Part shown: one piece after another, positions 6,001-9,000 of the stretch
How positions within the stretch are numbered: position 1 is the stretch's first letter
Layout: the number at the start of each line of letters is the position of its first letter
Virus record (IMG/VR): IMGVR_UViG_3300027628_000009
Coordinates: 1,742 to 65,741 of that record
Source of the DNA: a virus
DNA: 64,000 nucleotides
Strand: one strand, 5' to 3'
Made by a program: the position numbers

Positions 6001-9000
6001 GGTAAAGTTTCTGAAGAAGAATCTGAAAAAATAATTGAAGAGTTGTTGCACAATGAGAAAGAAAATTTGTAAATGTGGAAAAATCGTAAGTGATATAGAA
6101 GTATGTAGTTGCCGGAAAAAAGAACGTCAACAAAAGACTAGACGTTGGGAAAAACTAAACCCTGAAGAAGCCAAATTTTTGAGTTCTGCCAAATGGAAAA
6201 GATTGAGAATCAAAATTTTTGAGCGTGACAGTTTTCACTGTCAAAGATGTTTATTAAAATATGGAATCTTAAATACTGAATCCCTTGAAGCACATCATAT
6301 TAAATCAAGAAGGAATTTTCCTGAATTGCGTTGGGAACCAAAAAACATTCTTACATTATGTAAGACTTGCAACGTGCAGTTAGGAACAAATGATGAATTG
6401 GATTTTGTACCAAACAAAAATTTACATGAGACTGTCGAAAGTGTTCATGAATATAAACTATATTAAAAGGAGTGTTGCTTTGTGTCTATGAGTATGGGTA
6501 ATAAAGGCGGTAGGCCGGCAATGGCTTCTTCAGTTAGGAAAGGTAAAGATATGAACAAGCAAGAGTTAGCAATTCGTGAAGAAGCTGAAAAGCGCCTATT
6601 AGGTGATATTGAACAGGTTAAAGAAGTGCCTGAAATTTTGGATGAATTGGCTCAAGCTTACTACCTTTTCATGGTTGAGAATCTAGAAACTAGCAATCTA
6701 TTGGGCAACCTTGATATTCCATTACTTACAGAAACGGCATTCTGTTTAGCAAGGTTAGAAGAAACACGTTCCACAATGATTAGAGTTGGAACACTTGCTT
6801 ATGAATTAGATAAGAACGGCAATGAGAAGGTTAAGAAACACCCTATCGTTGACGTTTATAACACCCTTTTAAACCAGTTTAAAACATTAGGTGGACAATT
6901 ATGTATGTCTCCTTCTGCAAGAACACAAATGGCCAATATGCAGTTACAAAATAAAGAAGATGAAAAAGACCCTGTTTTACTAGCTTTAGGAATGGTTAAA
7001 TAAAATATTTTGAATTTTCTTTAAATTAATGACCCACAATTGATATTGAATATATATAACTGTTTGTAAGTTGAAAAGAAAGACATTTTCTTTTTCATCC
7101 TACAATTCTCCCTTGTATTTTTACAACTAGATATTTTCTCCCCTTAATATCTAGTTGTCTTTTTCGGAGTGACAAGATAGGTTGTGCTTAACTTTTTTCC
7201 TCCCCTGTTTTAGTTAAGCGTAGGTTCAATTCCTACCCACTTCATATAATCTCCTTTCCCTACTGGTTGGGTGTTGAGAGTTTCAATTGTCAACAAGATA
7301 AACCAGTTATACTATCATGCGGAAGCAAAGATGTGTAGGCTTTGTGAGTGTAAAACTTAGTTGGTGTAACGATTGTCCAACCTTCCGCACCGAACTAAAA
7401 ACATCCCTTCTTATGGCATTGGTTTTGGATGTTCCAACCGTAGGAAGTAAAACTGATTGGAAAGAGAGCAAGGTTATTTCACTCCACGGCAAAAGTGAAA
7501 CGGTAGAATTTTTAGAACTGTTTTAATTACCGGAACTATGAAAAACAGTCAGGTGTTTCTTTTGGAAGGTTATTTCCTTCACCTAGACCAAAAACGAAAA
7601 AACAAAGGTTTAATTTTTCTTTTAGTGTATTTCTTTTTCTATTGTCCAAGCCAATGAGCAGAATAAATGAAAAAGTAAATACGCTGGTCATTTTAAATAA
7701 GTATCATTCAACAACGACTGAATCCGCAAAATAACAAGTTCGCAAAATGAGCGTAGGTTCTAGGCGAAAACTACTAATGGTTAATGGGTGCGCTTCAGTT
7801 GTTCTTGAATGATATTTAGTTCCTTCTGTCAAACTGCTTTAAACGTTTTAGACGTTTTAAAGGTTGTAAACGTTTGCGAATCAACAAATAACGGTAGACG
7901 TACCAAGCTGATGTTATTAGAAGGTCTTTATCAGCTACTTGTTTATAGGGTGTGCTAATGTTCAGGGTTAATGTCTTTACGAAGCTTAACCTACTATATC
8001 GCCCTATAAAACAAGTATTTTATTAGGTAAAAGTAATAGAAAGGAGAAGATATTCATGATTGAAATGGGTGTAATTGTGGCCGTAATTATTGGTGTCGGT
8101 CAAGTTATCAAAAACGCTACTCCAATCAATGCTAAATATCTACCAGTAATTAACTTGGTTCTTGGTGTTATCTTAGGAGTTCTATTCCTATCTGATGATA
8201 TCAAAACAAACATCTTTACTGGCCTTATCATTGGTTTAACTGCAAGTGGCTTGTTTGATACTACTAAGACAGTTAAAGCTTCAAAATCAAGCGCTCAAGG
8301 TTAACTAAGCGCATTGTACATTGACAACTCAATAACGTAAGATGAATGACATTCCTATGTCACATAAAGAAGCGCACTAGCGCACAACTTATATTTTTTT
8401 GAAATAAACGTTTAAAACGTTTTATATAATATTAAACTGTTTAATATTGTTTTAGATAGTTTAAAAGGTTTAAAAGAGGATTGTTCATTTTGGACAATCC
8501 TTTTTATTTTTTTAGGAAGGAGAAAAAATACATGTTTTGGGATTTAGATGAAAAAGGCAACTTCATTATAGAAAAGAATGAAGACTTGCTTGGTTATCGT
8601 TGGGCAAAAGATGTTGTTGAAGGTCGGTTCGTGGCAAACAACTACATTAAATTAGAATGCCAACGTTATATAGACCGTTTAGAGAAGTTGCAACATCAAG
8701 ACGATTTTAGGTTTCACTTTAACTATGAAGAAGCGCAGATTATCTTCAATCTTCTGAAGCTAATACAATACTCTACTGGATTCTATGTTGGTGAACCAAT
8801 CACAAATCATATTGCAGGATTCCAAGCAATGATTTTTGAGAACATATTTTGTTGGTTTGATAAGCATGAAGATGAAAATGGTCTCCACAAGAAAATGATT
8901 GAGGAAGTCTATTTACAAGTAGGCCGGAAAAGTGGAAAGAGTTTTATTTGTGCAATTCTAGAGATTTTGATTATGTTACGTTCTCCTAGATTCTCTCAAC

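What the first reader, a model, noticed from the sequence alone, without database searches (positions are those of the whole stretch)
7261..8017. ~750-nt ornate non-coding RNA inserted in the DNA-packaging operon
Seen: almost the whole interval pairs into helices. These include a crossing pair (7318-25 with 7382-87; 7357-66 with 7388-98) implying a pseudoknot, a multi-branch domain closed by 7702-11/7805-14, a long 3' hairpin 7936-50/8002-17, and recurring GCAAAA/GCGAAAA loops. It follows a tRNA-like element, has a middle-class promoter, and lies between terS and holin/terL. Established: GOLLD and ROOL RNAs are phage-borne, of similar size, often tRNA-adjacent, and form RNA-only multimeric cages of unknown function. 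Inference: a GOLLD/ROOL relative or a new class of giant RNA, here co-transcribed with an anti-SD module. This is my best candidate for an undescribed system.
Basis: partly seen in the sequence, partly recalled or inferred. Interest (0 to 1): 0.88.

Follow-up and report, generated by a model that had tools for sequence, protein, structure and literature searches.

The report
Hairpin-chain non-coding spacer in phage tRNA slot
The 750-base stretch is real non-coding, hairpin-rich DNA in the place where related phages keep their tRNA genes, but it looks like a fast-evolving chain of separate RNA hairpins found in one phage species only, not a relative of the giant GOLLD/ROOL RNAs.

Summary
The + strand folds far better than shuffles (z = -6.4). 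No protein relic and no Rfam family matches, including GOLLD, ROOL and group I/II introns. The fold excess comes from three long hairpins: 7693-7823, 7936-8017 and 7586-7692. Separately folded modules give -190 of the global -205 kcal/mol, so this is a chain of hairpins, not one ornate fold.

Relatives hold tRNA arrays in this terS-terL slot, with their own promoter. This 92.5-kb phage has no true tRNA.

Only two short pieces recur in relatives, both with compensatory changes: a two-tier trailer hairpin (7262-7307) and a 3' motif (7884-7935). The other ~600 nt occur only in this phage species.

Against a 97% sister strain, the body drifts at the third-codon rate, and its fold is kept no better than in random mutants (p = 0.35). 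Block 7123-7310 is almost invariant.

RNA-level signs remain: wobble pairs all fall on the + strand, and there is one compensatory substitution pair and one paired deletion. A unique 9-nt anti-SD (7250-58) matches the SD of the holin-like gene.

Best reading: a transcribed structured spacer or insulator between an early/middle promoter and the late holin-like/terL genes. Interest is modest. This scan has noted similar tRNA-less RNA-module arrays in other phages.

The parts
7029..7060 (+). Phage-specific promoter: box ATGACCCACAAT (7029-7040) plus TATAAC (7055-7060). Predicted start near 7067.
   Evidence: The box occurs 9 times in the window against 0.64 expected. One copy lies just upstream of the UvrD helicase gene on the - strand. 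Eight copies align with a conserved TATAAC and are followed by RBS-ATG. Relatives have TTTACA-18-CATAAT (10 of 12 matches) at the same place before their tRNA array.
7123..7164 (+). Perfect 13-bp hairpin with the loop UUCUCCCCUU, followed by CUUUUUC. Terminator- or attenuator-like.
   Evidence: Inverted repeat I20. Pair probability 0.98. No changes against strain L209.
7166..7244 (+). tRNA-like element that is not decodable: 8-bp 'anticodon' stem with an 18-nt CU-rich loop.
   Evidence: Rfam tRNA model 18.9 bits against the 29-bit cut-off. ARAGORN finds nothing. The helices have P 0.66-0.99. The single change in L209 turns U-A into U-G in the T stem.
7245..7260 (+). CU-rich single strand containing UCUCCUUUC (7250-7258), complementary to the SD of the holin-like gene.
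   Evidence: The 9-mer and its complement each occur once in 64 kb. Pairing probability is 0.95 in the ensemble of 7100-8060. The duplex at -15.2 kcal/mol beats 99.1% of shuffles and ranks 1 of 51 RBSs. Related CU-rich words follow the last tRNA in L013, L042 and L045.
7262..7307 (+). Conserved two-tier trailer hairpin: outer stem ACUGGUU/AACCAGU, inner stem UGUUGA/UCAACA.
   Evidence: RNAalifold on 5 sequences gives 13 pairs, 6 of them with compensatory double changes. Model R1 hits only window, L013/L177, L042 and L045/L046. No changes against L209.
7311..7402 (+). Module A: helix 7319-25/7382-88 and crossing helix 7357-66/7388-98, a possible pseudoknot.
   Evidence: The helices are present. 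z is only -1.7. L209 changes fall in the loop at 7350-54.
7406..7447 (+). Hairpin CUUCUUAUGG/CCGUAGGAAG.
   Evidence: z = -2.3. Invariant in L209. A long-range alternative with 7891-7924 is predicted, but it conflicts with the hairpins conserved in L042.
7476..7549 (+). Two hairpins: UUUCAC/GUGAAA (7476-81/7494-99) and ACUGUUUU/AAAACAGU (7517-24/7542-49).
   Evidence: L209 carries matched 1-nt deletions at 7477 (T) and 7498 (A). It also carries the compensatory pair 7518 C>T with 7548 G>A, turning C-G into U-A.
7586..7692 (+). Module C: long AU-rich hairpin.
   Evidence: z = -3.3. It is weakened in the other strains, going from -22.1 to -14.7 kcal/mol in L209.
7693..7823 (+). Module D: 26-bp stem (7695-7722/7794-7821) carrying an irregular hairpin with CGCAAAAU twice, GCGAAAA once, and an apical tetraloop.
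   Evidence: z = -7.3. Inverted repeat I1, 28 nt at 86%. 7716 G>A turns G-U into A-U in four other strains. The loop GUAG becomes GCAA in L209. 7811 G>T breaks one pair. No other copies found anywhere searched.
7836..7875 (.). Cluster of AAACGTTT palindromes (7841, 7868). Probably DNA-level regulator sites.
   Evidence: AAACGTTT occurs 13 times against 1.9 expected. It clusters in late intergenic gaps, including 8406/8415 before terL.
7884..7935 (+). Conserved 3' motif: AACAAAUAA, the hairpin GGUA-GACG-UACC, then a 6-bp stem with the conserved loop UUAUNAGARGGUCUU.
   Evidence: Shared with L042:6905-6960. All six pairs of the second stem differ on both sides, GCUGAU/AUCAGC against CUAAGA/UCUUAG. 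Invariant in L209.
7936..8017 (+). Module F: 82-nt hairpin followed by UUUUAUU, terminator-like. Its 3' arm overlaps the conserved 20-mer at 8005-8024.
   Evidence: z = -4.9. The interior differs between the window, L209 and X3, while the basal stem is kept. The 20-mer is identical in L013, where a hairpin plus U-run sits just upstream of it.
8039..8047 (+). Shine-Dalgarno GAAAGGAGA of the holin-like gene, the partner of 7250-7258.
   Evidence: Unchanged in the silage strain (L012).
8056..8304 (+). Holin-like gene of 82 aa, the first ORF downstream.
   Evidence: Pfam PF06946 at 3.7e-6 and PF16079 at 3.3e-6. Partial matches to holins of Bacillus cereus-group phages.

Best explanation
The interval is the distal part of a ~950-nt non-coding transcription unit. 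This unit fills the 'stable-RNA / tRNA slot' between terS and the late packaging genes in a small clade of large siphophages.

In relatives, the slot has its own promoter, one to ten tRNA genes, a conserved CU-rich stretch plus two-tier trailer hairpin, variable cargo, and a terminator. In this phage the tRNAs are gone. What remains is a promoter of the phage's early/middle class (7029-7060), a hairpin with a U-tract, one tRNA-like element, the conserved trailer, and then about 700 nt of cargo.

That cargo is a chain of six independently folding RNA hairpin modules. It ends in a terminator-like 82-nt hairpin that abuts the conserved 20-mer and the RBS of a holin-like gene.

Inferred mechanism: the chain acts in cis as a structured spacer or insulator.
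- Module F would stop transcripts from the early/middle promoter.
- The long stems C and D are of the length that double-strand-specific RNases cut, so they would be processing sites.
- In any read-through RNA, the upstream anti-SD (7250-58) would hold the holin-like gene's SD (8039-47) closed.
- The gene would then be translated only from late transcripts that start downstream of the anti-SD.

Shown: non-coding status, modular fold, + strand bias of wobble pairs, two conserved sub-motifs with covariation, the slot's homology to tRNA arrays, and the unique anti-SD/SD match.

Inferred: transcription itself, termination at F, RNase cleavage, and translational gating.
For: Non-coding:
- No Pfam hit for the longest ORF.
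- No tblastn relic from 4,657 ORFs of relatives.
- Indels in L209 break the 69-aa ORF.

Modular fold:
- Per-module z-scores, and module energies summing to -190 against -205.5 kcal/mol for the global fold.

RNA on the + strand:
- z = -6.4 on the + strand against -3.1 on the - strand.
- The + strand helices contain 27 G-U pairs and no A-C mismatches; the - strand folds contain 6 A-C mismatches.

Local helices supported by strain variation:
- 7518/7548 changes C-G to U-A.
- Matched deletions at 7477 and 7498.
- 7716 changes G-U to A-U.
- The apical loop of D changes from GUAG to GCAA.

Slot homology:
- L013 has a promoter, about 10 tRNAs, the trailer, a hairpin with a U-run, and the same 20-mer.
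- L042 and L045 have tRNA-Glu followed by the trailer.
- The trailer hairpin has 6 compensatory pairs of 13.
- In the 3' motif, six of six stem pairs covary.

Promoter class.

Anti-SD/SD: each word is unique in 64 kb, P = 0.95, rank 1 of 51 RBSs, and better than 99.1% of shuffles.

Constraint pattern: 7123-7310 has 1 change in 188 nt, while the body has 24 in 625 nt. This is about the third-codon rate of terS and HNH, 12 in 318.
Against: - No transcript data exist: no RNA run was listed.
- A hairpin with a U-tract (7123-7164) lies between the promoter and everything downstream, so the body may be transcribed only weakly.
- The sister strain keeps the fold no better than random mutants (p = 0.35). 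Modules C and D each lose about 7 kcal/mol.
- The body's divergence equals the third-codon rate, so much of it could be unconstrained.
- F has a large loop and an AU-rich base, and the terminator scan did not call it.
- The CU-rich word is conserved in relatives that have different downstream genes. Its match to their RBS is not significant in L013 (p = 0.15) and only middling in L042/L045. The holin SD match may therefore be a by-product.
- The AAACGTTT sites inside 7836-7875 point to a DNA-level role for that piece.
Confidence: 0.5

Rival explanations
1. One large, globally folded 'ornate' RNA that works in trans. This would be a functional analogue of GOLLD/ROOL or a new class of giant phage RNA, perhaps multimeric.
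For: - About 750-950 nt of ORF-free sequence with a global z of -6.4.
- A phage tRNA-slot location like that of GOLLD/ROOL (PMC12286853).
- A conserved 3' piece with a variable 5' part, which loosely recalls GOLLD.
- Enriched GC(G)AAAA words.
- A possible pseudoknot.
- Predicted long-range helices 7406-41/7891-7924 with P about 0.9.
Against: - No Rfam hit, even at E <= 10.
- The fold energy is nearly the sum of the local modules.
- The predicted long-range helix is rich in G-U pairs and competes with the local hairpins that covary with L042.
- No homolog in the phage, plasmid, IMG/VR, JGI or GTDB scans, nor in about 215 fetched loci.
- Drift between strains is near-neutral, with no preservation of stability.
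- The interior of F is replaced outright between strains.
Confidence: 0.08
2. Largely functionless spacer. It would be the decaying remains of lost cargo (tRNAs or other inserts) plus palindromic debris, tolerated in a hypervariable slot. Only the flanking conserved pieces would be functional: 7123-7310, 7884-7935 and the 20-mer.
For: - The body's divergence equals the third-codon rate.
- Stability is not preserved.
- Slot content differs completely between close relatives: nothing in L013 and L045, other cargo in L042.
- The body is confined to a single species.
- Weak resemblance of 7355-7385 and 7767-7805 to the two halves of L042's Trp-type tRNA.
Against: - The tRNA covariance model finds nothing in 7261-8017, even at E <= 10.
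- No protein relic.
- All wobble positions are G-U on the + strand: 0 A-C mismatches against 6 on the - strand, binomial p about 0.016.
- One compensatory substitution pair and one matched deletion pair among only about 30 events.
- Module D's z of -7.3 is hard to reach by decay.
- Phage genomes rarely keep 600 nt of junk (own knowledge).
Confidence: 0.27
3. An array of separate small stable RNAs, each hairpin module being its own processed product that acts in trans. This is how tRNA clusters of other phages carry extra stable RNAs.
For: - Modular fold.
- Location in a tRNA slot with a tRNA-like head, which would attract RNase P and RNase Z.
- Conserved loop sequences in the 3' motif, and the enriched GC(G)AAAA words.
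- Earlier notes of this scan describe similar module arrays in other phages (unchecked).
Against: - No expression data.
- Most modules are not conserved, even in phages whose terS is 84% identical.
- No targets were identified.
Confidence: 0.15

Closest known systems
GOLLD RNA (Rfam RF01998)
   Same: Phage-borne, large, and found beside tRNA islands. [quoted passage not shown] Here the slot is a tRNA slot, a short 3' motif is conserved, and relative L042 has a tRNA between the 5' and 3' cargo.
   Different: No match to the covariance model at any threshold tried. There is no widely conserved multi-helix core. The fold is a linear chain of hairpins. The element occurs in one phage species only.
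ROOL RNA (Rfam RF03087)
   Same: Encoded in phages and prophages, near tRNAs, roughly 500-600 nt long, of unknown function (PMC12286853).
   Different: No model match. No conserved pseudoknotted architecture and no homologs were found.
tRNA gene arrays of the nearest relatives (metagenomic phages L013/L177, L042, L045; also Enterococcus vipetofem/VPE25-like and Staphylococcus 6ec-like phages)
   Same: The same slot between terS and terL. In the close clade, the same promoter position, the same CU-rich plus two-tier trailer hairpin, and the same 20-mer before the next gene.
   Different: This phage has no true tRNA anywhere in its 92.5 kb. Its slot holds a tRNA-like element plus about 700 nt of non-tRNA hairpins.
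Stable non-tRNA RNAs in the phage T4 tRNA cluster (species 1 and 2 RNAs; own knowledge)
   Same: Structured RNAs of unknown function that are co-transcribed and processed with phage tRNAs.
   Different: No sequence relation was tested or is expected. Expression and processing here are unproven.
Translational gating of the phage T4 lysozyme gene e: early read-through transcripts sequester the RBS in a hairpin, while late transcripts start inside it (McPheeters et al. 1986; own knowledge)
   Same: A lysis-type gene lies downstream of an earlier-class promoter. An upstream complementary word can close its SD only in transcripts that start upstream.
   Different: Here the partners are 780 nt apart rather than local. 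The late promoter has not been mapped, and nothing has been tested experimentally.

Membership tests
GOLLD RNA (RF01998) | Match to the family's covariance model at or above the gathering score | tested here: not met
   No Rfam match in the 64-kb window at gathering thresholds. No GOLLD hit at E <= 10 with lax filters on 6900-8600.
GOLLD RNA (RF01998) | Conserved multi-helix 3' domain shared across many phages, supported by covariation | tested here: not met
   Only about 52 nt (7884-7935) recur, and only in one relative. No homolog in any collection searched.
GOLLD / ROOL | Phage or prophage location next to tRNA genes | tested here: met
   The slot holds 1-10 tRNAs in relatives, and a tRNA-like element here.
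GOLLD / ROOL | RNA-only multimeric nanocage | not testable with these tools
   This needs an in-vitro transcript and cryo-EM or mass photometry.
ROOL RNA (RF03087) | Match to the family's covariance model | tested here: not met
   no hit.
Group I / group II introns | Match to the intron covariance models, and an interrupted host gene with exon flanks | tested here: not met
   No Rfam hit. terS and the holin-like gene are intact, and no split gene flanks the interval.
tRNA array / tRNA pseudogenes | Cloverleaf matches to the tRNA covariance model | tested here: not met
   Within 6900-8600 only 7166-7244 scores, at 18.9 bits and outside most of the interval. Nothing in 7261-8017 at E <= 10. ARAGORN finds none.
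MITE / repeated palindromic element (for module D) | Multiple dispersed copies with the same terminal inverted repeats | tested here: not met
   No second copy in the phage genome. No hit for the two-arm pattern in 185,579 species genomes. IMG/VR hits to one arm are chance 18-mers. The scans require exact matches, so diverged copies could be missed.
Y RNA / YrlA with Ro60 (Rsr) | A TROVE-domain protein gene nearby and a Y-RNA model match | tested here: not met
   No TROVE match in the 92.5-kb genome. No Y-RNA-type Rfam hit. Staphylococcus phage 6ec has a vWA 'RNA-binding protein' in the same slot, by annotation only.
Intrinsic terminator (for module F) | Stable stem directly followed by a U-tract | tested here: inconclusive
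   A 17-bp basal stem followed by UUUUAUU is present. The scan did not call it, because the loop is large and the base AU-rich. L013 has a 10-bp hairpin plus U6 at the equivalent place, read from the sequence.

The most novel reading that the evidence does not exclude
The whole unit from about 7067 to 8024 is a new, lineage-restricted phage long non-coding RNA that has replaced a tRNA array. It comprises a hairpin with a CU loop, a tRNA-like head, a CU-rich strand, the trailer hairpin, the hairpin-chain body and the 3' motif. It would display several anti-SD-like and SD-like words, and would act on translation either as a sponge or decoy for ribosomes or mRNAs, or as a timer for the holin-like gene. 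The hairpin chain would serve as a scaffold.
Probability: 0.12. Interest if true: 0.7.

Novelty: new variant of a known kind. Interest (0 to 1): 0.3.

Why it matters
If the reading holds, a phage's tRNA slot can lose its tRNAs and be refilled with non-tRNA hairpin RNA. This scan has now noted that pattern in several unrelated phages.

It also offers a simple, testable design: an early/middle promoter placed upstream of a lysis-type gene, made safe by a structured spacer and a long-range anti-SD.

Two small RNA motifs with clear covariation are new, but they are confined to a tiny clade: the two-tier trailer hairpin that follows the last tRNA, and the 3' motif with a conserved 15-17-nt loop.

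The result removes this locus from the list of candidate GOLLD/ROOL-like giant RNAs.

Tried and rejected
**RNA families**
- Rfam at gathering thresholds on the window gave no hits. At E <= 10 on 6900-8600 it gave only noise plus the sub-threshold tRNA.
- On relatives, Rfam found only tRNAs.

**Homolog searches**
- blastn in distant mode against 50,697 phage records and 72,556 plasmids: no match.
- IMG/VR scans with five patterns returned only the L013-type phage or chance hits.
- My JGI metagenome scan used a pattern that was too loose.
- Two GTDB genome scans found nothing.
- nhmmer and blastn against all fetched loci found nothing.
- Protein-anchored hunts used TerL, terS and holin searches followed by contig look-ups. 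They yielded the relatives used here, but no intermediate lineage. The holin-like protein has no relative sharing short words with it.

**Coding relic**
- tblastn of 4,657 ORFs from relatives against 6990-8060 gave only noise.

**Alternative identities**
- MITE for module D: rejected.
- Ro/Y RNA: rejected.
- Decayed tRNA array: the tRNA model finds nothing in the body.

**Expression**
- No RNA holder was listed in either run search.

**Other**
- The trailer model R1 found no members beyond the training clade.
- A first sliding z-score scan timed out; it was repeated in lighter form.
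Full report
**Setting**

The window is bases 1742-65741 of a 92.5-kb IMG/VR virus record. Around the finding lie:
- an HNH endonuclease gene (6035-6466);
- terS (6482-7003, PF05119);
- a 1,052-nt gap;
- an 82-aa holin-like gene (8056-8304, PF06946/PF16079);
- terL (8532-10295);
- the portal gene.

The phage belongs with large siphophages whose TerL is 36-41% identical to those of Enterococcus VPE25/vipetofem-like, Staphylococcus 6ec-like and Lactobacillus Lenus-like phages. 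The DNA occurs in plant, silage and rhizosphere metagenomes.

The + strand of 7261-8017 folds at -205.5 kcal/mol, z = -6.4. The - strand gives z = -3.1.

When the interval is cut at natural hairpin borders, the signal sits in a few modules:

| Module | z |
|---|---|
| 7693-7823 | -7.3 |
| 7936-8017 | -4.9 |
| 7586-7692 | -3.3 |
| 7245-7310 | -2.4 |
| 7403-7452 | -2.3 |
| 7311-7402 | -1.7 |
| 7453-7585 | +0.5 |
| 7824-7935 | -0.9 |

The module energies add up to -190 kcal/mol, so long-range pairing adds little. The 'multi-branch domain' is one long irregular hairpin in the MFE. Strong 130-nt hairpin windows (z < -4) make up 2.2% of this phage's windows. GC(G)AAAA words are enriched, 4 against 0.48 expected.

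**It is non-coding and matches no known RNA family**

- Rfam gives nothing at gathering thresholds in the whole window.
- At E <= 10 it gives only noise plus a sub-threshold tRNA hit at 7166-7244. There is no GOLLD, ROOL, group I/II intron, pRNA or Y-RNA hit.
- ARAGORN and the tRNA model find no true tRNA anywhere in the 92.5 kb.
- The longest ORF has no Pfam hit. It is broken by indels in a sister strain.
- 4,657 ORFs from relatives leave no tblastn trace.

**What sits in this place in relatives**

- L013/L177 (TerL 72% identical) has, after terS and a small ORF, a TTTACA-18-CATAAT promoter, about ten tRNAs, a CU-rich stretch, a two-tier hairpin, and a hairpin plus U-run. It then has the same 20-mer TATAAAACAAGTATTTTATT that lies at 8005-8024 here.
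- L042 and L045/L046 (terS 83-84% identical) have tRNA-Glu followed by the same CU-rich stretch and hairpin. L042 then carries 115 nt of other sequence, a Trp-type tRNA with a UCA anticodon, and 150 nt more.
- More distant relatives carry tRNAs just upstream of terL.

The slot is therefore a promoter-driven stable-RNA cassette with hypervariable cargo. The window's version has a promoter of a phage-specific class: box ATGACCCACAWT plus TATAAC, nine copies in the window, one of them in front of the UvrD helicase gene.

**What is conserved**

Two pieces of the interval recur in relatives, both with covariation.
- The trailer hairpin 7262-7307 has 13 consensus pairs, six with compensatory double changes, in four independent sequences. 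A covariance model built from it finds only this clade.
- The 3' motif 7884-7935 matches L042:6905-6960. AACAAAUAA and the GGUA-GACG-UACC hairpin are the same in both apart from one extra G-C pair in L042. In the next stem all six pairs differ on both sides, while the 15-17-nt loop is kept.

The remaining ~600 nt have no counterpart in any relative or in any collection searched.

**Strain comparison**

A silage-metagenome contig (L209) is a variant about 97% identical that spans terS to 8023.
- terS differs at 9 sites, all third codon positions. With HNH, the third-position rate is 12/318, or 3.8%.
- Block 7123-7310 has 1 change in 188 nt, against about 7 expected.
- The body 7311-7935 has 24 changes in 625 nt (3.8%) plus indels.
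- The interior of hairpin F is replaced outright.

Some changes support local helices:
- 7518 C>T with 7548 G>A turns C-G into U-A.
- Matched single-base deletions at 7477 and 7498 remove one U-A pair.
- 7716 G>A turns G-U into A-U.
- The apical loop of D changes from GUAG to GCAA.

Others break pairs (7811, 7882, 7673).

In a test with 600 random mutants carrying the same numbers and kinds of changes, the real variant is no more stable than chance (p = 0.35). Modules C and D each lose about 7 kcal/mol.

On the other hand, all wobble positions in the helices are G-U on the + strand: no A-C mismatches there against six on the - strand. This argues for selection at the RNA level on the + strand.

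**DNA-level content**

Segment 7836-7875 carries two copies of the palindrome AAACGTTT. This word occurs 13 times in the window against 1.9 expected. It clusters in late intergenic gaps, including just before terL and in the same place in L042 and L045. This part is probably a regulator-binding region rather than RNA structure.

**Anti-SD**

UCUCCUUUC (7250-58) occurs once in 64 kb. Its complement also occurs once, as the SD of the holin-like gene at 8039-47.
- The pairing has probability 0.95 in the ensemble.
- It is the best of 51 RBS partners.
- It beats 99.1% of shuffled controls.
- Both words are unchanged in the silage strain.

The CU-rich word is, however, also conserved in relatives with other downstream genes. 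There the match is weaker (L013 p = 0.15).

**Interpretation**

The best-supported reading is a transcribed, modular, fast-evolving hairpin chain in a former tRNA slot. It most likely works in cis as a spacer or insulator between an early/middle promoter and the late holin-like/terL genes. By analogy with the phage T4 lysozyme gene (own knowledge), the long-range anti-SD would keep the holin-like gene silent in read-through RNA.

Rival readings:
- a mostly functionless spacer (0.27);
- an array of separate small RNAs (0.15);
- a true giant ornate RNA (0.08).

Nothing is known about expression. A hairpin with a U-tract lies between the promoter and the rest of the unit, in all members of the clade, and this is unexplained.

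**Earlier notes of this scan**

On the same window, earlier notes flagged the tRNA-like element and the anti-SD leader. On other phages, they describe tRNA-less arrays of RNA modules. These agree with the modular reading but are not independent evidence.

Noticed in passing
L042:6743-6816: A relative phage carries a Trp-type tRNA whose anticodon is UCA instead of CCA (loop CU-UCA-AA). ARAGORN calls it tRNA-SeC(tca). It may read UGA or act as an opal suppressor.
   Followed up: partly
window 7836-7875, 8400-8475, 16150-16260, 23860-23960, 32668-32760, 39421-39500: The palindrome AAACGTTT occurs 13 times against 1.9 expected. With GTTTAAAAC/GTTTTAAAC words it forms clusters in intergenic gaps of the late region. 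The same words lie upstream of terL in L042 and L045. This is probably a regulator's binding-site family.
   Followed up: partly
window 5375-5386(-), 7029-7040(+), 33369(+), 52746(-), 56535(-), 61050(-), 63148(-), 63920(-): The conserved box ATGACCCACAWT is followed about 15 nt later by TATAAC. It looks like a phage-specific promoter class, resembling an activator box at -30 rather than a sigma-A -35 hexamer.
   Followed up: partly
window 5461-5720: This AT-rich divergent gap between the UvrD helicase gene (-) and HNH/terS (+) has the strongest local fold z-scores in the whole window, -9.9 and -8.9. It could be a genome end (cos) or origin region.
   Followed up: no
window 7123-7310: The hairpin with a CU-rich loop, the tRNA-like element, the CU-rich strand and the trailer hairpin form a block that is almost invariant between strains: 1 change in 188 nt against about 7 expected. 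This block, not the 600-nt body, is the constrained part of the locus.
   Followed up: partly
window 7538-7657: A 39-aa ORF with a hydrophobic C-terminal half is intact in strain L209, with two conservative replacements (S4N, I26V). It has no Shine-Dalgarno sequence and is probably not a gene.
   Followed up: partly
window 7953-7999; L209:~2060-2100: The interior of the 82-nt 3' hairpin is a different sequence in each of three strains (window, L209, run X3). Its basal stem and the 20-mer at 8005-8024 are kept.
   Followed up: partly
L009 (Staphylococcus phage 6ec) 1812-4753: In 6ec the same terS-terL slot holds a vWA-domain protein annotated as 'RNA-binding protein' (possibly Ro60-like), an exonuclease and tRNA-Pro. 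The slot collects RNA-related cargo across the wider group.
   Followed up: no
L013:3953-4144: The first tRNA hit of the relative's array is 112 nt long, so it contains an insert. The next element (4074-4144) matches only the tmRNA model, weakly (E = 4.6e-4).
   Followed up: no
window 8473-8512: A strong terminator-like hairpin with a T-run lies directly upstream of the terL RBS. terL expression would therefore need read-through, or a promoter inside the 8396-8430 AAACGTTT cluster.
   Followed up: no
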